IMG/VR virus record: IMGVR_UViG_2657245112_000034
DNA from: a virus
Lineage: Duplodnaviria > Heunggongvirae > Uroviricota > Caudoviricetes
Reading direction: 5' to 3' (one strand)
Length of the DNA stretch: 9,239 bases
Part shown: one piece after another, positions 1-9,239 of the stretch
How positions within the stretch are numbered: the stretch's first letter is position 1
Layout: each line of letters opens with the position of its first letter
Notes under the pieces: model-generated
The model's database searches: none
What the model was told of the DNA's origin: nothing
Seen by the model: the letters and a program-made list of their open reading frames with translations, nothing else
Program-made: the position numbers and the translations under genes

Positions 1-192
1 TTGTTCTGGTGTTATCGGAGAGGCTTTTGGTGTTTTGCCCTGACGCTCATCACGCAGTTGTTTGACCCATCTTGTCATTGTGGAAAGGCCAACATCCATA
101 GCTTTGGCGGCATCTGCCACCGTGTATGTCTGGTCAACAACCAGTTGAGCGGATTCGCGTTTAAACTCTGCGCTAAAATTTCTTTTTTTCAT
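1..192 (-). CDS. IS3-family transposase OrfA (HTH DNA-binding part), N-terminal 64 codons; 3' part lies outside window
   Basis: Hand translation from ATG (forward cat 190-192): [64 protein letters not shown], matching from memory the IS911 OrfA N-terminus. Not in the ORF track because it runs off the window. Confidence 0.8.
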
Positions 193-264
193 TGGAGCAC
201 CTGTGTTGTTCTGAGGTGAGCATATCACCTCTGTTCAGGTGGCCAAATTCAGTAAACCACTTCA
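1..264 (-). mobile_element. Partial IS3-family insertion sequence (IS911-like), left end only; element continues beyond window start
   Basis: Minus-strand translation of 1..192 is a recognisable IS3-family OrfA N-terminus; terminal sequence on minus strand begins TGAAGTGG (forward ccacttca at 257-264, repeated at 265-272), consistent with IS3-family TG...CA ends. Exact end (264 vs 272) uncertain. Confidence 0.7.
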
Positions 265-292: not shown

Positions 293-865
293 ATGGTTGA
301 CGCATCAGCTCAACCCCATATAGTTGTAACACTTGAGCCAAACCCTTGGGCCGCTTTTTACTTTGATATTAACATTGCTAATACAGGGAACGCACCTGCC
401 TATAATGTTGAGGTTGTGTTTGATCCTCCACTAGTAAATGCGGAGCATAGAGAAAAAAGTGAGATTCCGTTTAGTAAGGTAAGCGTGTTAAAAAATGGGC
501 AATCACTTACCAGCAATCTCTGTAAGTATGAACAAATCAAAGATCAAATTTATAATATTAATATAAGCTGGGCAAGCAAACCTAAATCAAACGATAGAGA
601 AACAAATGAATATGTGTATGACATGGCGACATTTGAAGGAATAAGTTATCTAGGAGCGAGAAGCCCATTGACGCAAATTGCAGAACAAATTAAAGGTATA
701 AGAGAGGATTGGAAACCTATTGCACAAGGAGCTAAAAAAGTAAAAGCAGACGTATATACTTCAAGCGATAGAAACGAAGAACGCACGTATCTGCAAGAGC
801 AACACGATTTGGCAATAAAAAGGAGAGATGAGAAAAGAGAAAAAAGATTAGAGTCTGGTGAATAA
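293..865 (+). CDS. Hypothetical protein, 190 aa from ATG 293 (frame open from GTG 239 inside the IS end); possibly 5'-truncated by the IS insertion
   Basis: ORF track 239..865; first ATG at 293 with weak purine-rich upstream (gacgagacaaaaaga). AT-rich codon usage; charged C-terminal tail RRDEKREKRLESGE. No family recognised. Confidence 0.5.
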   Translation: MVDASAQPHIVVTLEPNPWAAFYFDINIANTGNAPAYNVEVVFDPPLVNAEHREKSEIPFSKVSVLKNGQSLTSNLCKYEQIKDQIYNINISWASKPKSNDRETNEYVYDMATFEGISYLGARSPLTQIAEQIKGIREDWKPIAQGAKKVKADVYTSSDRNEERTYLQEQHDLAIKRRDEKREKRLESGE

Positions 866-874
866 TTTTAAAGG

Positions 875-913: not shown

Positions 914-1738
914 TTAATCACTTATTTTTGACAACAGATAATTACTGAACGCACTGCAAGTGACTAACATAAATTTAGCTTCAGCTAAGGTAGGATTTAC
1001 ATCTTCTTCTGTTAGCGCATGACGTATTCCACCCTGATCACTTGTATAACCATAGAGCTGACTAAAAGCGCCTTTCATTGCAGAGTGTATATATCCTTTT
1101 TCCTCTATAGCTTTAAGACAAGCCCCCAAGGTTCCTTTATCATTGCCCGTGATTTTCCTGCATAAAGATTCAATTGCAGAGATAGACTCTTTAATCGAGT
1201 TTCTGTAGTCTGGCTGCTCTCTATCCGTCATTAGTTGTAACGCCCTTTCGAAATGGCTACGCGATGAATCAGTGCCATTATCAACTGCGTTCTGAACACT
1301 TTCAATTTCGTTATCATTTGAAATAGGAGTAATACAACCATTTATTATGGTATAACCAACGCCATGCTTTTTAAAGATGGAATTGAGATGCTTCGATAGA
1401 TTAATATATGAATTAGTTCTCTCAATGATGAACTCAATTAAATCATATACCAAATACCATGCTTCCCCATATATATAATCTCGGATAGCAGTCAGCAACG
1501 TCTTATCACTTTTGTATCCACTTTCATAACGAGGAATATTATCCGCAGGTTGATTTAGATAATATATCCACACAGACTGCGCACATTTTGTTGCTGTAGC
1601 AGTTTGACGATTGTTAGTCCAAAGGAAAAGATATAAGCAATTCCACAATGCCATGCGTGTATCAGAATTAAGATCATTCAGCTGGACATGCTCTCTAACG
1701 TCAACATGACCATACCTCACAGAAAATGGCTTTATCAT
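914..1738 (-). CDS. Hypothetical protein, 274 aa, AT-rich; function unknown
   Basis: Long uninterrupted ORF; ATG at 1738 preceded by purine-rich caggcaggggaaga; W/Y-rich N-terminal half and helix-like C-terminal half. No catalytic motif confidently recognised by eye. Confidence 0.65.
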   Translation of the reverse strand: MIKPFSVRYGHVDVREHVQLNDLNSDTRMALWNCLYLFLWTNNRQTATATKCAQSVWIYYLNQPADNIPRYESGYKSDKTLLTAIRDYIYGEAWYLVYDLIEFIIERTNSYINLSKHLNSIFKKHGVGYTIINGCITPISNDNEIESVQNAVDNGTDSSRSHFERALQLMTDREQPDYRNSIKESISAIESLCRKITGNDKGTLGACLKAIEEKGYIHSAMKGAFSQLYGYTSDQGGIRHALTEEDVNPTLAEAKFMLVTCSAFSNYLLSKISD

Positions 1739-2271: not shown

Positions 2272-2292
2272 TGGTGCGAAGGCCGGACTCGC
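2272..2292 (-). other. att-like site: partial copy of a tRNA-Leu (leuX-type) 3' end, probable satellite attachment-site repeat marking the left boundary
   Basis: Minus strand reads GTGCGAGTCCGGCCTTCGCACCA; the 15-nt CGAGTCCGGCCTTCG plus CACCA matches, from memory, the T-arm/acceptor 3' end of leuX (P4 integrates at leuX) with one G missing. Upstream sequence is AT-rich and not tRNA-like, so this is a fragment, not a gene. Confidence 0.45.
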
Positions 2293-2374
2293 ACACACAT
2301 TTAACCTATTGTAAAAATTGAAATTTAATTATAATTAATTCAATTATGCCCCTTTTTGTGCCCCCACCATTCTC

Positions 2375-2583
2375 TGTTCACATTTTGATTTTTGTTGATT
2401 ATTTATCCAAAAATCATCAGAGAAATAGTCAATCTAGTTAGGTTCCGTTAAACGGATCCAAACCGGGACTTGACTCTACAAAAAATACTTTTTTTTCGCA
2501 AAACCATGCACACTATTCACCCTGCCATTTTTAACTTATATATCAATTGTTTACGTGTTAACAGCGAGGTGAAGAGTGAACAG
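2375..2583. repeat. crr-like patch of alpha-iteron-like octamers downstream of the alpha gene
   Basis: TGTTCACA at 2375-2382, TATTCACC at 2514-2521, tandem GGTGAAGA/GTGAACAG at 2568-2583; these resemble the P4 type I iteron TGTTCACC / GGTGAACA in both orientations. Confidence 0.3.
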
Positions 2584-2605
2584 CTATCTCTACATTTGTG
2601 CGTTT

Positions 2606-2643: not shown

Positions 2644-4977
2644 TTATTTTAATATTGGCTCATCACACTTGGGCAGCCAGTCTGCATTACTCTCCTCTTT
2701 CAAAGTGAGGTTAGTTTGCATTCCCTGATTAGTTCGCCGTTTCTCATAATGTAGCCCGTACTCCTTCAGCATGACTGGCAACCCTTTGCCAAACATCGTA
2801 AGACTCAGGGTGTTTTTATAGCCATTAGCCTCCATGTATACGAGGTAGGCATGGTAAAGGTATGTACGTGGCTGGCGTGGGACAATATTGGCGTTCCCCA
2901 TAAACATACCGTTGGTGTCAGGTAATGCCTCAAGGTAGCCACAAAAATCAAATGCTGGATCAGCATCACGCTTGATGGTGAGAGCCTCATCAGAATTCTG
3001 CTGCGACTGAAGCAATGTTCTGGCGCTCATCGGATCGCTGAAACGCTGCATGAGCTGACGAACAATCACAGCCAGTTCTCGTGCAATTTTATCTTTCAAC
3101 TGCGGATCGCGTTCTTCCGGTGCTATCTGCTCAGGAAAATGCAGAATAACTCTCCTGCGGGACACACCACCACTGCGATCAGTGAAGCGCATAGGATTAT
3201 TATTTACGGCCAAGATAACCGCCGGAATATGTGTTGAATAAGCATTCTGATATTTGGGGTCCACAGATACTGCATCGCCACCAGTTATAGCCTTAAGCCC
3301 GGCGCCGTCGCCGCTCCACTTCTCCTGATCAGGCAGGCGAATAAGAGAAAAACCTATCAGAGCCGCACGTTCTCGCGGGGACTCCAGCGTTTCAATGGTC
3401 GCAGAGGTGGCGTTATCCTCTCCAGCAAGCATGGTCGCAATTTCAGCCAGAATACTTTTGCCACTTCCACCAGGGCCAGTCACTTCCAGAAAGAGCTGCC
3501 AGTCATAGCGGTTCGCCAGCACCATAAATAACGCTGCAAGAATAATGTCGCGTTTTGCTGGCTTGTGTCCGGCGGCCCGGTCCAGCCAACGCCAGAATGC
3601 CGGGGCATGAGTTTCAAGCGTTTCCCCCTTTACCGGTGGCGTGAAATCGACTTCACACAGGGTACGCAGCCAGTTCTCTTTACAGTGCGGACTAAAAAGC
3701 CCTGTTCGCGTATCGAGAACGCCATTACGAAAACCAATCAGATGACGTGACGGATTTTGCTGCTGCGGAACAATTAACTTTAATGTTTCCACCAGTGAGG
3801 CAATTTTTCCTGAGGAAAACGGTGCCCCGAGGCGCTGGAAAAGGGCTGCGACATCTCGGGCAAAATCTGACTGAGAAATAACTTTCCACGCTCCAGACTC
3901 GTAGCGGGATAAAAGCTGCCCGTTCGGATCAACCGCCAGTGCATCCCTGTAATGCTCCCGAACCCTCTGAGCTTTTTCGCTGACACTCATCGCTGTGAAT
4001 TCTGCTTCACTCATTGTGTCGAAAGGACTGGCGTTATGTGGCTTCAAAGCCTCAAGAATTGCCTTCCGGGTGGATTCCTCTCCGTATTGGGTAAGCGCAT
4101 CATTCCAGTCACCAAAAACCGGTGGCAGCACAATGTCACACTGACTCGCTTTTGCAGCAGTTTCAGCCCTGTTCTGGCCTGAACCATTCAGATCGCGGTC
4201 CGCTGCAATAATTAACTGATATCCCGGATACTTATTATGGGCAACGCTGCTCAGAGAAAGAAAGTTGACCGACGAAAATGCCACCATGACGGCTTCTCCT
4301 GTCAAATAATGAATGGTAAGCGCCGTGGCGTAACCTTCCGCAATCCAAATCCTTCTTACAGAACTCCCGCCCCCTTCTATCAGATGATAGGCCTCCTTAA
4401 CCTGACCTCCTTTAAGAAAACACTTGCTACCATTGCCACTGATGAGCTGAATATTCACCAGCTCCCCGTCAGCGTTATAGAGTGGGACGATCAAATCACC
4501 GGGGCGGAACATCATACCACCGGCCTTATGAGCTGAAGTCAGCTCATGGCAAATATGCTCCGGGAAACCTTTATGTGTAAGATAAGTGTTTCCGGCAGAT
4601 TCACGCGAGGCTTGCAGCAGTCGCGCGGCAAGTGCTGCCGCTGCATCTTTCCCGCTATCGGTATCGGCGGTTAACGTCCTGACCTCGGAATTAACTACAG
4701 ACAGATCATGTGTCAGTCCATGTATCCTGTCAGCTGCTTCACTGATATCCACATTCAGTGCCCTGGTGACAAGCGCTAAACCATCCCCGGCTCCGCACTG
4801 ATTGCAGAACCATGTTCCGCGTCCTTCCTGATCGTCGAAGCGAAAACGATCTTTACCGCCACAGACCGGGCAAGGCTGATGGCGATTTTTCAATATATTC
4901 ACGCCCAGCGCTGGCAGAATCTGAGCCCAGTGACCGCGGGCAGCCTTCACGGCCTGACTGACTTTCATTCCTGACAT
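2644..4977 (-). CDS. alpha: P4 alpha-type bifunctional DNA primase / replicative helicase with C-terminal origin-binding region
   Basis: 777 aa from ATG at 4977 (RBS GAGGGAGAA upstream; ORF track extends to 5028 but has no RBS there). Zn-ribbon CPVCGGKDRFRF...WFCNQCG near N-terminus, Toprim-like IWIAEGYATA...IIAADRD, Walker A GPGGSGKS. Length equals P4 alpha as I recall it. Confidence 0.9.
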   Translation of the reverse strand: MSGMKVSQAVKAARGHWAQILPALGVNILKNRHQPCPVCGGKDRFRFDDQEGRGTWFCNQCGAGDGLALVTRALNVDISEAADRIHGLTHDLSVVNSEVRTLTADTDSGKDAAAALAARLLQASRESAGNTYLTHKGFPEHICHELTSAHKAGGMMFRPGDLIVPLYNADGELVNIQLISGNGSKCFLKGGQVKEAYHLIEGGGSSVRRIWIAEGYATALTIHYLTGEAVMVAFSSVNFLSLSSVAHNKYPGYQLIIAADRDLNGSGQNRAETAAKASQCDIVLPPVFGDWNDALTQYGEESTRKAILEALKPHNASPFDTMSEAEFTAMSVSEKAQRVREHYRDALAVDPNGQLLSRYESGAWKVISQSDFARDVAALFQRLGAPFSSGKIASLVETLKLIVPQQQNPSRHLIGFRNGVLDTRTGLFSPHCKENWLRTLCEVDFTPPVKGETLETHAPAFWRWLDRAAGHKPAKRDIILAALFMVLANRYDWQLFLEVTGPGGSGKSILAEIATMLAGEDNATSATIETLESPRERAALIGFSLIRLPDQEKWSGDGAGLKAITGGDAVSVDPKYQNAYSTHIPAVILAVNNNPMRFTDRSGGVSRRRVILHFPEQIAPEERDPQLKDKIARELAVIVRQLMQRFSDPMSARTLLQSQQNSDEALTIKRDADPAFDFCGYLEALPDTNGMFMGNANIVPRQPRTYLYHAYLVYMEANGYKNTLSLTMFGKGLPVMLKEYGLHYEKRRTNQGMQTNLTLKEESNADWLPKCDEPILK

Positions 4978-4991
4978 GACGCAGTTCTCCC

Positions 4992-5315
4992 TCAGTGTAA
5001 AACCGGCTTTTTGATGTGACGGACGCATAACTCATCCATTACGGCTATTCCGAGCTGGGAGAGTGCGGGACAGGACATTAGAGGGCCGTATTCCATCAGG
5101 TCTGAAAGCAGGGCGCAGGCGATTTCCATGCCTTTTGTTTGCCCGTGCTGTCGCAGATAAAATCCTTCAAGCTCACGGGCAATAGCGGTTTCAATTTCAT
5201 CCAGAGTGAGCTGCAGATGGCGGTTTTGCTGATAGCAGGCACTCAACCAGGCGCAGGCTACCGCGCGGCGATACAACGCTACCCGAAGTGAAAGGGAAAG
5301 AGTGCGTGATTTCAT
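4992..5315 (-). CDS. Hypothetical early-left-operon protein, 107 aa
   Basis: ATG at 5315 with RBS GGAGGTGGTG; start overlaps the upstream gene's stop in ATGA (5312-5315); ends 14 nt before the alpha start. No family recognised. Confidence 0.6.
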
Positions 5316-5781: not shown

Positions 5782-5789
5782 ATGGGTGG

Positions 5790-5875
5790 TGACCCGAACG
5801 GGGGTAGGAATACCGGCCTTATTGGAAACCGGCCAGCCCGAAGGCTGCCCCGCCCGGACCACCATTATCTGAAAG
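5790..5875 (-). ncRNA. Candidate P4 CI-like immunity RNA (boundaries approximate)
   Basis: No credible ORF; holds the single complementary element (transcript CCGGUAUUCCUACCCCCG, forward gtaggaa 5805-5811) and a CAGCC-UUCG-GGCUG tetraloop hairpin (forward 5834-5847). Matches P4 seqA/seqB/seqC logic. Confidence 0.4.
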
Positions 5876-5930: not shown

Positions 5931-5953
5931 AAAAAAAGACGCACGGCGCGTCT
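5931..5953 (-). terminator. Intrinsic terminator / attenuator in the leader between the seqA-like element and the RNA
   Basis: Transcript AGACGC-GCCGU-GCGUCU followed by seven U (forward A-tract 5931-5937), read directly from the minus strand. Confidence 0.45.
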
Positions 5954-5971
5954 GGTGTCGCCAATAAGTAA

Positions 5972-5990
5972 CTCGGGTTCCTACGCCCGG
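5972..5990 (-). promoter_or_regulatory. seqA-like RNA target element (transcript GGGCGUAGGAACCCGAG)
   Basis: Forward gttcctacgc at 5977-5986; complementary to the UUCCUAC-CCC element at 5801-5816 (about 10 of 11 positions can pair). Confidence 0.45.
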
Positions 5991-6015
5991 CAGCCGATTT
6001 TGCGGCAGCGGGAAA

Positions 6016-6080: not shown

Positions 6081-6341
6081 TCACGCATGGCCTCCTTGCT
6101 CGCGGGCAGCAATTCGCGCCGCCATCCATGCACTGACCTCCGACTGTACCCAGGCCACATTTTTTCCACCCAGGGATATCTGCTGCGGGAAGGCATCGCG
6201 GCTGATAAGGTCGTAGATGGTTGAACGGGATAGCCCGCAAAGGTGCATCACTTCAGGTAATCGTATGAAGCGCTCCTGCTGAGCCGGAACCGGGAGCACC
6301 GGAGCAGCTGGTGCCGGGGTGGAAACGGAAATACTATTCAT
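6081..6341 (-). CDS. vis: AlpA/Vis-family helix-turn-helix regulator / excisionase-like protein, 86 aa
   Basis: [50 protein letters not shown] is a typical AlpA-family HTH signature; ATG at 6341 with RBS GAGAGGTAG; Pro/Ala-rich N-terminal tail. Confidence 0.85.
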
Positions 6342-6830
6342 CTGGCTACCTCTCTAATATGTTTACAACAGTCCGGGCAATTCCATGCGGATTCAGGTAG
6401 CTCCTTATTATGTTTATATAAGCGGCTCGCGCATGCTTTATTTATTTTGTGTGAAATGTTGATTTCTCAAAAAATAAAACAGCTAAAAACCGTATGAAAC
6501 GAACAAAAACAAACAATTCCTTTATGGAATATAATAAGGAGCATCAATAATAAAAAAGTCTATTACACTAGGCAGGATCACAGCTCAAATCTGAACCAGC
6601 CCATATCATTCAGGGCGTTACATCATAAGCACTAAGACAACACCTGATTAATAAAAGAGCCAAAACGGCCAAAAATAAACAGCTCACCATATGTATCAAT
6701 AAATCCGATGATTAAAGAAATTAAATTACCATCTTACTTCCGCATGTATCCGGATGTGTTTAATGAACATCAGACAAATTCATTTTTATGAATATTTTCC
6801 TGAAATGCAACTGAGTGCAGGGAGGTTGAA

Positions 6831-6847
6831 TGTTTAATTATTAAACA
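6831..6847. promoter_or_regulatory. Perfect 17-bp palindrome TGTTTAAT-T-ATTAAACA, candidate operator
   Basis: 8+1+8 palindrome verified base by base; the half-site TGTTTAAT recurs at 6757-6764 and 6981-6988. Confidence 0.3.
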
Positions 6848-6886
6848 GACATAAGACATCTTTTATTCTTTACATAGAATATGTAT

Positions 6887-7100
6887 TGAATACTGGTGAA
6901 TACTGGTGAATATTGGTGAGGAGAAAAGATCCAGTAATAAACTGAAATAAATATCGCGACTTATATGAAAAAGAAATATATGTTTAATTTTATCTCTGTG
7001 AACAGTCATGAACAGTAGATGATCACTTTAATTAAAACACTACACCACTTAACCACATGTATTTACTATATTTTTATTGAAGTGAACAGTAGTGAATAGT
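6887..7100 (+). repeat. ori-like cluster of alpha-iteron-like octamers, including three tandem 10-bp units
   Basis: TGAATACTGG x2 and TGAATATTGG (6887-6916) give GGTGAATA at 6895 and 6905; GTGAACA at 6998 and 7082, ATGAACA at 7008, GTGAATA at 7092; all same orientation, paired at 10-bp spacing; about 4.5 kb from the crr-like patch. Confidence 0.45.
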
Positions 7101-7165
7101 ATGTATTAAAGGAAGCGTGTAGATCAGACATGACACCTTTCTCTGGCTAGCCAGAACAAGGTCAT

Positions 7166-7183
7166 TGTTCAGTCACTGACACA
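7166..7183 (+). promoter_or_regulatory. P_sid-like late promoter activator site, TGT-N12-ACA dyad
   Basis: TGTTCAGTCACTGACACA has an internal palindrome CAGTcACTG; centre is about 81 bp upstream of the sid-like ATG; weak -10-like CACAAT at 7218-7223 and no clear -35, as expected for Ogr/Delta-dependent P2/P4 late promoters. Confidence 0.4.
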
Positions 7184-7255
7184 ATCCTCCTCGGTAGTGC
7201 GCTTGTATGGACCCCGGCACAATTGACACAACAACAAAACACTACCGGAGCAGTC

Positions 7256-8008
7256 ATGACTACTGTTAACCAGATCCCTGATGCAAACATTACACCCTCC
7301 CTCCCACCGAAAATTCGCGAAGCGGTGGATAAAGTTAAGGCAGCAAAAGCTGTCTGGCAGGAAGAACGACGAAAACAAACTGAAGCTGCTGCAATGATTG
7401 AAACTATCCGTAAACGTCAGGAAGATACAAAAACGGAAACGCAGGCGCTTAATGATGAATGGCGAAACCTGTTTCGTGAGAATCAGGGAAATATGACGCC
7501 ACGCATGAAAAAACTGCGGGCAGAAATCGCCCTCGGACGCGAAACACTGGATGAGTTCGAAGATTTGCTGGCAGCTCAGGCGGCAGAAAATGAATTCCTG
7601 CCCTGGAAAACTGCGGATGCTGCAAACCACTACATCAGCGAACATAATCGCCTGATTGAAACTCATGCAGTGTGGCTCTGGAATGAGTTTATGAAGGAAC
7701 ACGGTCAGAAACTTATTCAGATCCTTGGACTGCTGAAAATGACTCTGGGCCGAAGCGCTTCTGCTGTTATCGGTGTAGTTCATACCGTAAACGACCCCGA
7801 AAGTGTGCTGAAGCAATTTATCAGCGAGCAACTCACCACTCCGGCACTGTCCTGTAACGTATCTTCAACCGATGATATTACCCTGCCGGGGATCAGCATT
7901 TATGCGGACGATAAAGCCATCCAGGATGCCAGACAATCCCCCAGCCCTGCAGCGCGTTCACGGATGCTTAAACAGCGTGACATGGTTAAAGGGGGCGAGA
8001 AGAAATGA
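7256..8008 (+). CDS. Sid-like protein by position (alpha-helical, coiled-coil-rich), 250 aa
   Basis: ATG at 7256 with GGAG 5 nt upstream (ORF track starts at TTG 7223); first gene after the late promoter; heptad-like charged helices (WQEERRKQTEAAAMIETIRKRQEDTKTE...). Assignment is by synteny, not recognised sequence. Confidence 0.6.
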   Translation: MTTVNQIPDANITPSLPPKIREAVDKVKAAKAVWQEERRKQTEAAAMIETIRKRQEDTKTETQALNDEWRNLFRENQGNMTPRMKKLRAEIALGRETLDEFEDLLAAQAAENEFLPWKTADAANHYISEHNRLIETHAVWLWNEFMKEHGQKLIQILGLLKMTLGRSASAVIGVVHTVNDPESVLKQFISEQLTTPALSCNVSSTDDITLPGISIYADDKAIQDARQSPSPAARSRMLKQRDMVKGGEKK

Positions 8009-8560: not shown

Positions 8561-8833
8561 ATGGCCCTGAAGTGTCCTGAATGTGGCGCGGTCGCTCACG
8601 CCAGAACCAGCGCCTATGAAGCTCCGTCGGTTAAACGCTCATGGTATCAGTGCCAGAATCTGGAATGTTCCTGCACATTTACCGCACTGGAAAGCGTGGA
8701 TACGATAATTATGAAGCCTCGGTGCAATGAACAGGAATCAGACAAAGCAAAAATACCGGAAAAACAACAGCAAACTCTCAATCGCTATGGCTCCGCGTCA
8801 AAGCTGTCAAACCGTCAGCAAATTCCTGTCTGA
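8561..8833 (+). CDS. Ogr/Delta-family zinc-finger late transcription activator, single domain, 90 aa
   Basis: ATG at 8561 with AAGGAG upstream (the ORF-track start at 8459 overlaps psu and is rejected); CPECGAVAHARTS...QCQNLECSCTF matches the P2 Ogr Cys4 signature. Confidence 0.85.
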   Translation: MALKCPECGAVAHARTSAYEAPSVKRSWYQCQNLECSCTFTALESVDTIIMKPRCNEQESDKAKIPEKQQQTLNRYGSASKLSNRQQIPV

Positions 8834-8854
8834 TTAGCAAAATACGACCACGAA

Positions 8855-8880
8855 GTCCCGGTCCAGTACCGGGATTTTTT
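8855..8880 (+). terminator. Rho-independent terminator of the late operon
   Basis: gtcccgg (8855-8861), loop tccagta, ccgggat (8869-8875, one G-U pair), then T6 at 8875-8880, about 20 nt after the stop. Confidence 0.7.
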
Positions 8881-8924
8881 ACGCCTTTTTCCTGGCTGGC
8901 CTGAGAGCGTATGAGTGCATATCT

Positions 8925-8959
8925 ATGGCGCATGAAAACGCATGAGTCTCATGCGCCAT
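8925..8959. repeat. Perfect 11-bp inverted repeat atggcgcatga / tcatgcgccat with 13-nt spacer, followed by TTTT
   Basis: Read directly; the spacer also carries gcatgaaaac, which recurs at 9011-9020. Confidence 0.3.
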
Positions 8960-9036
8960 TTTTGACGCGAAAGCCCTTGTGTGGTGGCTTCTGAGACGAT
9001 TTACGGGGTGCATGAAAACCAGTCTGTTAAGCGAAG

Positions 9037-9062
9037 CGGGCAGGCGGGCGGGGCATTGCGCG
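9037..9062. other. Degenerate cos-like G-rich motif (very tentative)
   Basis: cgggcaggcgggcggggcattgcgcg loosely resembles the P2/P4 cohesive-end sequence GGCGAGGCGGGGAAAGCAC as I recall it, but only with indels. Confidence 0.15.
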
Positions 9063-9142
9063 CAGGAATGTGTATACCGTTTTAGTAATGATCGCTGACA
9101 TCTCACTTTTAAGTAAGCGACTCGTCAGAACCGTATTGATAT

Positions 9143-9239
9143 TTACTGAGAGCTCAGATCAACTTTCCAGGGCAACAGATCGCGTACCCGGTTTGCCGGC
9201 CAGTCCTGGATATGTTCAATGACGTAACGCAGCCACTTT
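9143..9239 (-). CDS. 3' end of a minus-strand gene entering from the right edge (C-terminus ...KWLRYVIEHIQDWPANRVRDLLPWKVDLSSQ); identity unknown
   Basis: Hand translation of the minus strand gives an open frame from the window edge to TAA (forward tta 9143-9145); absent from the ORF track because it is truncated. Lies just past the cos-like region where P4-like elements carry variable cargo. Confidence 0.4.
   Translation of the reverse strand, partial: KWLRYVIEHIQDWPANRVRDLLPWKVDLSSQ

What the first reader, a model, noticed from the sequence alone, without database searches (positions are those of the whole stretch)
6887..7100. ori-like array of alpha-iteron-like octamers with helical phasing
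Three tandem 10-bp units (TGAATACTGG x2, TGAATATTGG) are followed by two pairs of (G/A)TGAA(C/T)AGT at 10-bp spacing about 84 bp apart, giving at least seven same-orientation near-matches to GGTGAACA in 215 bp. I read this as the replication origin bound by the alpha C-terminal domain; the three-unit tandem block is the most distinctive part and could instead be a site for another factor.
Basis: partly seen in the sequence, partly recalled or inferred. Interest (0 to 1): 0.4.

Follow-up and report, generated by a model that had tools for sequence, protein, structure and literature searches.

The report
P4-type satellite phage replication origin
This repeat array is the replication origin of a P4-like satellite prophage of E. 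coli, an expected and already understood kind of element, though in this lineage two of the six usual initiator sites have decayed and an extra phased repeat block of uncertain binding partner sits beside it.

Summary
The window has a 10-bp tandem block at 6887-6916 and two pairs of GTGAAYAGT-type octamers (6998/7008 and 7082/7092), 84 bp apart. This clustering exceeds every shuffle tested.

The window is a P4-like satellite prophage of E. coli O26. The array lies between the vis/alpA gene and sid, where the phage P4 record annotates its origin. It has the same layout as P4: three 10-bp "type 2" repeats, then "type 1" iterons around an AT-rich spacer.

Thirty-three of 34 other P4-like elements from many genera carry at least five of the six iteron positions at up to one mismatch. 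The window and seven close relatives keep positions 1, 2, 5 and 6. Positions 3 and 4 are degenerate. The element's alpha protein carries a close homologue of the solved P4 origin-binding domain.

So the origin reading is supported by homology, not by experiment.

The tandem block is ambiguous:
- Its units resemble iterons.
- It sits where P4 has P2 Cox boxes and where most relatives have phage-186 Apl-type sites.
- Its third unit is a recent 10-bp duplication.

It is a known kind of element in a modest variant form. Interest is low to moderate.

The parts
6887..6916 (+). Three tandem 10-bp units (TGAATACTGG x2, TGAATATTGG). They contain GGTGAATA at 6895-6902 and 6905-6912. They are part of a wider phased array spanning 6876-6923 (AGAATA ... 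TGAGGA / GGTGAGGAG). The block sits at the position of the P4 'type 2 repeats'.
   Evidence: Weight-matrix scores of the 12-mers are 13.1 bits at 6894, 8.0 at 6904 and 5.2 at 6884. One unit is a 10-bp duplication that is absent from the 98%-identical relative L086 and from at least 62 other E. coli genomes. The aligned unit in relatives is a perfect or near-perfect iteron: 18.5 bits in L085, 17.7 in L087 and 16.0 in L066.
6998..7015 (+). Type I iterons 1 and 2 (GTGAACAG 6998-7005 and ATGAACAG 7008-7015), 10 bp apart.
   Evidence: They align with P4 type 1 repeats 9310-9317 and 9320-9327. They are near-invariant in the 8 lineage members while the flanks diverge.
7019..7026 (+). Degenerate remnant of iteron 3 (ATGATCAC; 3 mismatches to GTGAACAG).
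   Evidence: It lies at offset +21 from iteron 1, as in P4 (9331-9338). It scores 0.9 bits. The more distant lineage members have ATGAATAC or CTGAATAC at this position.
7038..7045 (-). Degenerate remnant of the inverted iteron 4. The + strand reads CACTACAC; the reverse complement is GTGTAGTG (3 mismatches).
   Evidence: It aligns with the P4 inverted type 1 repeat 9353-9360. This position is at least 80% conserved, mostly at least 95%, in 39 other-lineage elements but degenerate in all 8 lineage members.
7047..7081 (.). AT-rich spacer (about 27-30% G+C) between iterons 4 and 5. It is the presumed site of unwinding and priming.
   Evidence: G+C profile. The sequence TGTATT.ACTAT.TTTTTA is conserved across both lineage sets. 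It corresponds to the AT-rich part of the P4 ori1 core (own knowledge of Tocchetti et al. 1999; the paper could not be retrieved).
7082..7099 (+). Type I iterons 5 and 6 (GTGAACAG 7082-7089 and GTGAATAG 7092-7099).
   Evidence: They align with P4 9396-9403 and 9406-9413. They score 15.9 and 14.9 bits. GTGAATAGT is the commonest form of iteron 6 in the family.
2668..2967 (-). Origin-binding (winged-helix) domain of the alpha primase-helicase, residues 671-770. The alpha gene spans 2644-4977.
   Evidence: It matches PDB 1KA8 (P4 alpha origin-binding domain) at E = 1.7e-48 over all 100 residues. Alpha is 73% identical to P4 alpha overall. Pfam finds Zn-ribbon primase, Toprim, D5_N and Pox_D5 domains.
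2372..2585 (.). A crr-like cis replication region: one 120-bp unit with iteron-like sites at 2374-2381 (-), 2513-2520 (-), 2569-2576 (+) and 2576-2583 (+).
   Evidence: (scores 9.2, 16.0, 12.5 and 12.6 bits), and the alignment to the P4 attP-crr region. Three of the six sites of a typical unit are kept.
4992..5315 (-). cnr-like gene (DUF5375). In P4 its product is the copy-number regulator of the oriI replicon.
   Evidence: Pfam PF17345, E = 2.4e-48. The P4 ORF106 carries the same family name.
7166..7221 (+). Two TGT-N12-ACA boxes (7166-7183 and 7204-7221) upstream of sid. They are the presumed Delta/Ogr sites of the late promoter Psid. They mark the right boundary of the origin region and are not part of it.
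   Evidence: They align with P4 9493-9510 and 9531-9548. They are conserved in the lineage.

Best explanation
The array is the ori1-type replication origin of a P4-like satellite prophage. The mechanism below is inferred by homology to P4. The C-terminal winged-helix domain of the element's own alpha protein binds the direct GTGAAYAG iterons at 6998, 7008, 7082 and 7092. These lie on one face of the helix, since 84 bp is about 8 turns. They flank a conserved AT-rich spacer (7047-7081), where the helicase domain of alpha opens the duplex and its primase domain starts synthesis. A crr-like iteron cluster downstream of alpha (2372-2585) acts with the origin in cis, and a cnr-like gene limits copy number. 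What is shown here: position, architecture, base-level alignment to the P4 origin, family-wide conservation, and the presence of the cognate binding domain. What is inferred: binding, firing, and whether this particular copy, which has insertion sequences on both sides, is still active. This lineage is a variant. Iterons 3 and 4 of the canonical six are degenerate. The 10-bp phased block to the left (6876-6923) is built from iteron-like units. I consider it slightly more likely than not that at least its right-hand units are auxiliary alpha sites.
For: Gene context: alpha, a DUF5375/cnr-like gene, an Ash/Icd-like gene carrying C4 and isrK RNA matches, and AlpA on the minus strand; Sid-like, Psu and Delta genes on the plus strand. 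The sequence is 100% identical to the E. coli O26 RM8426 chromosome, with an integrase and tRNA-Leu at the far end of the element. The P4 record annotates rep_origin 9086-9809 between ORF88 and sid, with three 10-bp type 2 repeats and six type 1 repeats. The window shows the same order and spacing. In 33 of 34 other-lineage P4-like elements used to train the weight matrix (alpha 58-100% identical to the window or P4 protein), at least five of the six positions x, +10, +21, +41 (inverted), +86 and +96 match GTGAACAG with up to 1 mismatch; five more distant elements with alpha 60-70% identical to the query keep 2-5. In the 8 members of the window lineage (E. coli, Enterobacter, Scandinavium), iterons 1, 2, 5 and 6 and the spacer are near-invariant, while flanking DNA is far less conserved, with long indels. 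Weight-matrix hits in the window concentrate in the origin, the block and the crr-like region, and the clustering exceeds all shuffles. The alpha origin-binding domain matches 1KA8 at E = 1.7e-48, and no lineage-specific change in that domain was detected. PMC4234260 states that P4 alpha binds the origin repeats through a winged-helix domain and then unwinds and primes. For the block: none of 34 other lineages has a hit of 8 bits or more at that position, while 6 of 8 lineage members do, including a perfect GGTGAACAGT in L085. GGTGAATACT occurs at iteron-3 positions in other elements. The P4 record itself labels GGTGAATA in crr as a type 1 repeat.
Against: No binding or replication was measured. 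Only four of the six canonical iterons survive. In P4, from my own knowledge of Tocchetti et al. 1999 (not retrievable here), deleting any one iteron or inserting 6-10 bp inactivates oriI. The crr-like unit keeps only 3 of 6 sites, and the two closest non-E. coli relatives (L041, L066) show no iteron hits within 520 bp downstream of alpha. The prophage is flanked or interrupted by insertion sequences. The origin is too diverged for BLAST to link it to any phage record (one search finds no P4 match over 6887-7100). Homology therefore rests on layout, short motifs and a MAFFT alignment. The block is not exactly in helical phase with the core: 92 bp from the iteron-like unit at 6906 to iteron 1 is 8.8 turns.
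Confidence: 0.85

Rival explanations
1. The core (6996-7100) is the origin, but the tandem block 6876-6923 is not an alpha site. On this reading it is the lineage's version of the P4 'type 2 repeats'. These act as a phased array that copies the operator of the helper phage's Cox/Apl-type excisionase-repressor. Through it, an infecting or induced helper switches on the satellite's late leftward promoter (PLL).
For: The P4 type 2 repeats read TTAAAGTCA, TTAAAGCCA and TTAAAGCAA. The published P2 cox-box consensus is TTAAA(G/C)NC(A/C), spaced 10-11 bp. P2 Cox binds upstream of P4 PLL and activates it, while WPhi Cox has a different specificity and does not (PMC3936717; PMC5009727). In about two dozen other P4-like elements, the block at the same position is made of TGGCAAAC-type units. 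These are the same units as the seven annotated Apl sites of phage 186 and, inverted, its attP Apl sites. blastn-short gives 17-22-nt matches at E = 0.009-0.04, and there are 2-6 motif copies in the block zone against 0.8 or fewer elsewhere. L039 has a Fels-2-like array at that position. The unit therefore varies by lineage, while alpha's binding domain and the type 1 iterons do not. The block has the expected form: 4-5 degenerate direct units at 10-bp spacing. Its copy number is polymorphic. From my own knowledge, the minimal P4 ori1 excludes the type 2 repeats.
Against: None of ten helper switch regions examined carries a TGAATA-type phased array. These were P2, 186, Fels-2, Cartapus, WPhi, P24B2, ESSI2_ev239, Chuche, P24A7b and phiT5282H. 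The only overlap is 9 nt (TATTGGTGA) with the presumed WPhi C-repressor operator. It is specific to the window's third unit, is not conserved in the lineage, and is probably chance. The conserved right-hand units look like alpha iterons. The lineage has a separate Fels-2-like array at 6466-6520 that could already serve as the helper sensor.
Confidence: 0.4
2. The array is a decaying relic. It descends from a P4-type origin but no longer fires, because two of six iterons and half of the crr sites are lost in a prophage that is now fixed in the chromosome.
For: Iterons 3 and 4 are degenerate. The crr-like unit keeps 3 of 6 sites. Insertion sequences lie at both window ends, and an IS66 element sits after delta. 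The 92 identical copies are in closely related large-genome E. coli, which fits clonal inheritance.
Against: The same four-iteron-plus-block design is kept in 8 diverged members across three genera. These members have intact alpha, cnr, alpA, sid, psu and delta genes and different defence cargo (Drt3b, SIR2, gop-beta-cII-like). Iterons 1, 2, 5 and 6 and the spacer are near-invariant while neighbouring DNA is far less conserved, which indicates purifying selection. Alpha is full length.
Confidence: 0.2
3. The repeats are late-promoter control sites (Delta/Ogr boxes or Vis/AlpA sites) rather than origin elements.
For: The region lies between two divergent operons. Iterons 1-2 happen to spell TGT-N12-ACA (6997-7014).
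Against: The conserved Delta-type boxes that align with the P4 Psid region lie at 7166-7221, outside the array. The octamers match the alpha iteron matrix, not a dyad. The AlpA/Vis proteins of P4 and of class-A elements are about 70% identical, yet their blocks differ completely and match helper operators instead.
Confidence: 0.03
4. The repeats are chance repetition in AT-rich intergenic DNA.
For: The region is 25-33% G+C, where short repeats are common.
Against: The clustering exceeds all 1000-2000 dinucleotide-preserving shuffles. The same sites are conserved in 47 elements.
Confidence: 0.01

Closest known systems
Phage P4 ori (ori1 of the oriI replicon; NC_001609 rep_origin 9086-9809)
   Same: Same location between vis/ORF88 and sid. 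Same orientation. Three 10-bp tandem repeats to the left. Direct GGTGAACAG-type iterons in 10-bp pairs, 84-86 bp apart, around a conserved AT-rich spacer. A cognate alpha with a 1KA8-type binding domain. A crr-like cluster after alpha and a cnr-like gene.
   Different: Four rather than six good iterons: positions 3 and 4 carry 3 mismatches each. Iteron 2 is ATGAACAG, a lineage-fixed variant. The left block has TGAATAnTGG units, not TTAAAGnCA. The intergenic region is about 360 bp longer. The crr has one 120-bp unit, not two. There is no BLAST-detectable DNA identity over the origin.
P2 Cox boxes upstream of P4 PLL / phage 186 Apl operator arrays
   Same: The tandem block shares their form: several degenerate direct units at 10-bp spacing. 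It also shares their position in the satellite, upstream of the PLL-homologous segment and 80-135 bp left of iteron 1.
   Different: Its unit matches neither TTAAA(G/C)NC(A/C) nor TTGGCAAAC, nor any of ten helper switch regions sampled. Its conserved units instead score as alpha iterons.
Iteron origins of theta plasmids (e.g. RepA/pi-type)
   Same: Direct, helically phased initiator-binding repeats next to an AT-rich unwinding region.
   Different: The initiator is a fused primase-helicase (Toprim plus SF3 helicase plus winged helix) rather than a Rep that recruits DnaB and DnaG. The origin is bipartite with a distant crr (own knowledge).

Membership tests
P4-type ori1 (oriI replicon) | Lies in the intergenic region between the vis/alpA end of the left operon and sid. 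| tested here: met
   AlpA is at 6081-6341 (-) and the Sid-like gene at 7256-8008 (+). P4 ORF88 is at 8764-9030 and sid at 9583, with rep_origin between them.
P4-type ori1 (oriI replicon) | Type I iterons (GGTGAACAG-like) at positions 1, 2, 5 and 6 of the conserved layout (x, +10, +86, +96), all direct. | tested here: met
   They start at 6998, 7008, 7082 and 7092 (offsets 0, 10, 84, 94). Scores are 13.1, 3.2 (a lineage-fixed ATGAACAG variant), 15.9 and 14.9 bits.
P4-type ori1 (oriI replicon) | Type I iterons at positions 3 (+21, direct) and 4 (+41, inverted), giving six in all. | tested here: not met
   7019-7026 reads ATGATCAC (0.9 bits). 7038-7045 has the reverse complement GTGTAGTG (3 mismatches). 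Both are degenerate in all 8 lineage members, while these columns are at least 80% conserved, mostly at least 95%, in 39 other elements. For this reason I file the array as a variant, not a typical member.
P4-type ori1 (oriI replicon) | A conserved AT-rich segment between iterons 4 and 5. | tested here: met
   7047-7081 is about 27-30% G+C, and its sequence is conserved with P4 and 46 other elements.
P4-type ori1 (oriI replicon) | A cognate alpha protein with a C-terminal origin-binding winged-helix domain. | tested here: met
   Residues 671-770 match PDB 1KA8 at E = 1.7e-48. Alpha is 73% identical to P4 alpha.
P4-type ori1 (oriI replicon) | A second cis site (crr) with type I iterons downstream of alpha, and a cnr gene. 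| tested here: met
   One crr unit aligns to the first P4 120-bp repeat, with 3 sites of 12 bits or more and one weaker site. DUF5375/cnr-like gene at 4992-5315. The crr is partly decayed.
P4-type ori1 (oriI replicon) | Alpha binds the iterons, and the fragment supports alpha-dependent replication. | not testable with these tools
   This needs EMSA or footprinting and a replication assay.
Type I iteron (applied to the tandem block units) | A score within the range of true iterons under a matrix trained on 204 sites from 34 other-lineage origins (minimum 8.7, 5th percentile 12.2 bits). | tested here: inconclusive
   The unit at 6894 scores 13.1 (inside the range), the one at 6904 scores 8.0 (just below the minimum), 6884 scores 5.2 and 6914 scores 2.0. 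The unit aligned to 6904 scores 16.0-18.5 in three relatives.
Helper Cox/Apl operator mimic (P4 'type 2 repeats') | At least three direct units at 10-11-bp spacing, 80-135 bp left of iteron 1 and upstream of the PLL-homologous segment. | tested here: met
   Units at 6876, 6887, 6897, 6907 and 6917. The block lies at -111 to -82 relative to iteron 1, against -135 to -106 in P4.
Helper Cox/Apl operator mimic (P4 'type 2 repeats') | The unit matches the operator repeat of a known P2-like helper's Cox/Apl protein. | tested here: not met
   No TGAATA-type array was found in ten helper switch regions. Counts of cox-box and Apl motifs in the block zone are 1 and 0. The helper sample is small, so this lowers the claim but does not exclude it.

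The most novel reading that the evidence does not exclude
The 10-bp phased block left of the origin in every P4-like satellite may be a lineage-specific copy of the cognate helper's Cox/Apl operator: P2-type in P4, 186-type in most relatives, Fels-2-type in a few. On this view satellites track helper specificity at this one site. The window lineage would then be the exception. Either an unknown helper protein recognises TGAATA-type units, or the site has been taken over by the satellite's own initiator. In the second case alpha binding would be coupled to the late promoter, and would compensate for the loss of core iterons 3 and 4.
Probability: 0.3. Interest if true: 0.5.

Novelty: new variant of a known kind. 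Interest (0 to 1): 0.3.

Why it matters
For this window, the result mainly settles annotation. The unannotated 880-bp gap between alpA and sid in about 160 complete E. coli genomes, including O26 Shiga-toxin strains, contains the satellite's replication origin.

There are two modest points of wider interest:
- A whole sub-lineage of P4-like satellites keeps only four of the six iterons that are otherwise near-invariant. If that origin still fires, the requirement for all six described for P4 is not general.
- The survey of P4-like satellites I could search (PMC8628076) does not mention origins, iterons or crr. The comparison made here suggests that the 'type 2' block next to the origin varies with the helper's Cox/Apl specificity. 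That would be a simple sequence marker of which helper a satellite responds to.

Tried and rejected
- **BLAST of the intergenic region against 50,697 phage records.** It found nothing, even at word size 11. A local blastn of the window against P4 links alpha, cnr, the C4 region, alpA and crr, but not the origin. Homology had to be shown by layout, motifs and alignment.
- **Primary P4 origin papers.** Tocchetti 1999 and Lindqvist 1993 are not in the library. Full-text searches for iteron sequences and terms gave no P4 origin paper. Statements about minimal ori1 and iteron deletions are therefore from my own knowledge.
- **Sigma-70 promoter and terminator scan of 6300-7300.** It found no more sites than the shuffles did.
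- **Rfam.** No RNA family matches in 6887-7100. A 48-aa ORF at 6863-7009 (-) is rejected as coding, because close relatives differ by a 10-bp indel inside it and PGAP annotates nothing there.
- **Search for Cox relatives in viral contigs.** It returned 80 loci, 72 of them 100% identical to P2 Cox and the remaining eight at 84-99%, so there was almost no diversity.
- **Search for lineage-specific residues in alpha's binding domain.** None passed the criterion, so there is no sign of altered iteron specificity.
- **Vis/AlpA as the binder of the block.** Judged unlikely. AlpA proteins are 64-70% identical across lineages whose blocks are unrelated. The int-att arm of this element is nearly identical to that of P4.
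- **The 9-nt match of unit 3 to the WPhi TATTGGTGAC repeats.** Noted but treated as probable chance, because it is not conserved in the lineage.

Full report
**1. What is in the sequence**

The stretch 6887-6916 reads TGAATACTGG, TGAATACTGG, TGAATATTGG and runs on into GGTGAGGAG. Tandem Repeats Finder calls it at 6887-6919 with period 10, 3.3 copies and score 59. Further right lie GTGAACAGT (6998), ATGAACAGT (7008), GTGAACAGT (7082) and GTGAATAGT (7092). All are on the + strand, in 10-bp pairs that are 84 bp apart.

The clustering is not chance:
- GGTGAACA with up to 1 mismatch occurs 14 times in the window against 6.8 expected, and no shuffle of 200 reached 14.
- The region has 9 same-strand matches with up to 2 mismatches in 215 bp. 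The largest value in 1000 dinucleotide-preserving shuffles was 7.
- A weight matrix trained on other elements gives cluster sizes beyond all 2000 shuffles.

**2. What the window is**

The window encodes, on the minus strand:
- an alpha-type primase-helicase (2644-4977);
- a DUF5375/cnr-like protein;
- a 74-aa protein;
- an Ash/Icd-like ORF that overlaps matches to the C4 antisense RNA and isrK;
- an AlpA-type regulator (6081-6341).

On the plus strand it encodes a Sid-like protein, Psu and an Ogr/Delta zinc finger.

The sequence is 100% identical to the chromosome of E. coli O26 RM8426. There the element continues through an IS66 insertion to an integrase next to tRNA-Leu. Alpha is 73% identical to P4 alpha. 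This is a P4-like satellite prophage. It has the psu-delta order swap that a published survey reports in 20% of such elements (PMC8628076).

**3. Comparison with P4**

The RefSeq record of P4 annotates a replication origin at 9086-9809, between ORF88 (vis) and sid. Within it are:
- three 10-bp 'ori type 2 repeats' (9176-9205);
- 'ori type 1 repeats' at 9310, 9320 and 9331 (direct);
- one at 9353 (inverted);
- two at 9396 and 9406 (direct).

The window has the same order, orientation and spacing: 84 bp between pairs against 86 bp in P4. A pairwise alignment puts the window's two pairs and the AT-rich spacer on the P4 ones. BLAST does not see this similarity.

The positions of P4 iterons 3 and 4 are occupied in the window by ATGATCAC (7019-7026) and by a sequence whose reverse complement is GTGTAGTG (7038-7045). 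Each has three mismatches.

**4. Relatives**

A scan of one genome per species with the alpha alignment returned 80 loci. I extracted the alpA-sid intergenic region from 44 sequences: 42 of those loci plus P4 and the window.

In 33 of the 34 other-lineage elements used for the weight matrix, at least five of the six positions x, +10, +21, +41 (inverted), +86 and +96 match GTGAACAG with up to one mismatch. Their alpha is 58-100% identical to the window or P4 protein, and they come from more than 15 genera of Enterobacterales. Five more distant elements, with alpha 60-70% identical to the query, keep only 2-5 positions.

The window and its nearest relatives keep only positions 1, 2, 5 and 6. These relatives are L041 (Enterobacter), L066 (Scandinavium) and five E. 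coli variants at 74-98% identity.

In an alignment of 39 other-lineage and 8 lineage sequences:
- the iteron columns are at least 80% conserved, mostly at least 95%, in the former;
- in the latter, iterons 1, 2, 5 and 6 and the spacer are near-invariant;
- positions 3 and 4 are degenerate in all eight;
- the DNA to the left (6540-6800) has diverged much further, with long indels.

That pattern argues for selection on a four-iteron core rather than decay in a single prophage.

**5. The initiator and the second cis site**

Residues 671-770 of the window's alpha match the solved P4 origin-binding domain (PDB 1KA8) at E = 1.7e-48. I found no lineage-specific substitution in that domain, so the same iteron specificity is expected. 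A paper in the library states that P4 alpha binds the origin repeats through a winged-helix domain and then unwinds and primes (PMC4234260).

Downstream of alpha, the window aligns with the P4 attP-crr region:
- an att core at 2273-2291;
- integrase arm repeats near 2347-2368;
- one 120-bp crr unit with iteron-like sites at 2513 (-), 2569 (+) and 2576 (+), plus a weaker one at 2374 (-).

Many relatives have a single crr unit with six sites, and P4 has two units. The window keeps three of six.

**6. The tandem block**

Three facts bear on it.

*It is polymorphic.* The 98%-identical relative L086 lacks one 10-bp unit. 92 complete E. coli genomes have the three-unit form, and at least 62 have a form 10 bp shorter. 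Across the lineage the block is a 4-5-unit phased array: (T/C)GAATA-N4, TGAATA-N4, TGAA(T/C/A)A-GTGG, TGAGGA.

*Its units resemble iterons.* Under the matrix trained on 204 sites of 34 other origins, the 12-mer at 6894 scores 13.1 bits and the one at 6904 scores 8.0 (training minimum 8.7, 5th percentile 12.2). The unit aligned to 6904 is GGTGAACAGT in L085 (18.5 bits), GGTGAATAGT in L087 (17.7) and scores 16.0 in L066. None of the 34 other elements has a hit of 8 bits or more in that zone.

*It occupies the position of the P4 type 2 repeats.* These read TTAAAGTCA, TTAAAGCCA and TTAAAGCAA and so fit the published P2 cox-box consensus TTAAA(G/C)NC(A/C). P2 Cox is reported to bind upstream of the P4 PLL promoter and activate it, whereas WPhi Cox has another specificity and does not.

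In about two dozen other P4-like elements, the block at this position is made of TGGCAAAC-type units. The phage 186 record annotates seven Apl sites whose sequence is ttggctaaac / atggcaagtg / ttggcaaaca / aattgcaaac / tttggctaat. It also annotates attP Apl sites with the inverted unit. blastn-short gives 17-22-nt matches between these arrays and the satellites. The motif is enriched 2-6 fold in the block zone. One element (L039) has a Fels-2-like array there.

The block position therefore appears to hold a copy of the helper's Cox/Apl operator, different in each lineage.

For the window's TGAATA units I found no matching helper among ten switch regions sampled. I therefore leave the block unresolved: about 0.45 for auxiliary alpha sites, 0.4 for a site for a helper or other factor, and the remainder for no function.

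**7. Verdict**

The origin interpretation is supported by positional, architectural and comparative homology and by the presence of the cognate binding domain. It has not been tested by binding or replication.

The array is a variant of a well-known kind of origin. The variant features are a four-iteron core and an iteron-like block at the type 2 position. They are shared by a lineage present in about 160 of 5426 complete E. coli genomes and in two other genera. Whether this particular copy, which has insertion sequences on both sides, still fires is uncertain.

Noticed in passing
related loci L003-L063 (alpA-sid intergenic regions) and L001 9176-9208; L289 2057-2124 and 76-122: In P4-like satellites, the 10-bp phased block 80-135 bp left of origin iteron 1 differs by lineage and matches helper Cox/Apl operators. 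P4 has P2 cox boxes. About two dozen elements have phage-186 Apl-type TGGCAAAC units, and in some the units are inverted as at the 186 attP. L039 has Fels-2-like units. L044 shares TAATAAGGGT with the WPhi switch region. The searchable survey of P4-like satellites does not discuss this.
   Followed up: partly
window 6466-6520: A second phased array of AAAAC-type units (aataaaacag ctaaaaaccg tatgaaacgaac aaaaacaaac) lies in about 360 bp of extra intergenic DNA that P4 lacks. The matching stretch in relatives L085 and L087 has a 15- and a 14-nt exact match to the Fels-2 cI-apl switch region (CAAACCACATAAAAC). It may be a helper-response site. The window's own copy gave no significant BLAST match.
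   Followed up: partly
window 6342-6440: The first 100 bp upstream of alpA, including ccttattatgtttatataagc, are highly conserved in all 8 lineage members even though the next 300 bp diverge strongly. This is probably the promoter and leader of the alpA operon in this lineage.
   Followed up: no
window 7166-7183 and 7204-7221: Two TGT-N12-ACA boxes align with two such boxes upstream of P4 sid and are conserved in the lineage. They are the presumed Delta/Ogr activator sites of the late promoter. All four TGT-N12-ACA matches in the whole window fall within 6997-7221. One of them (6997-7014) is formed by iterons 1 and 2.
   Followed up: partly
window 5782-5869 (-) and 5932-6009 (-): Strong Rfam matches to the C4 antisense RNA (83 bits) and to isrK (72 bits), plus the c4 target element, lie inside the ORF annotated as 'Icd-like'. 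This is the satellite's RNA-based immunity region.
   Followed up: no
window 2273-2291 and about 2347-2368: An att core (TGGTGCGAAGGCCGGACTC, one base shorter than the P4 attP core) and the integrase arm repeat ATGCCCC(T)TTTTGTGCCCCCAC mark the left end of the satellite. The AbiJ-domain gene at 914-1738 (-) and the truncated ORF at 239-865 therefore lie outside it, possibly in a neighbouring island.
   Followed up: partly
window 1-264 and 9107-9239: Both ends of the window are insertion-sequence DNA: an IS3/IS911-like end on the left and an IS66-family (ISCro1) end on the right. The IS66 element is inserted just after a cos-like sequence (about 9040-9075, GGCAGGCGGGCGGGGCATTGCGCGCAGG) that resembles the P4 cohesive-end region.
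   Followed up: partly
window 856-867: An isolated iteron-like 12-mer, TGGTGAATAATT (12.3 bits), lies far from the origin and crr, at the end of ORF 239-865. It is probably chance.
   Followed up: no
loci L004, L005, L019, L026, L033, L039, L041-L043, L049, L055, L061, L066, L078 (520 bp downstream of alpha): About a quarter of the alpha-encoding loci show no iteron hits of 8 bits or more downstream of alpha, although most of those whose alpA-sid region could be examined have a good origin. Either crr is dispensable, displaced or lost in those elements, or the prophage ends there.
   Followed up: no
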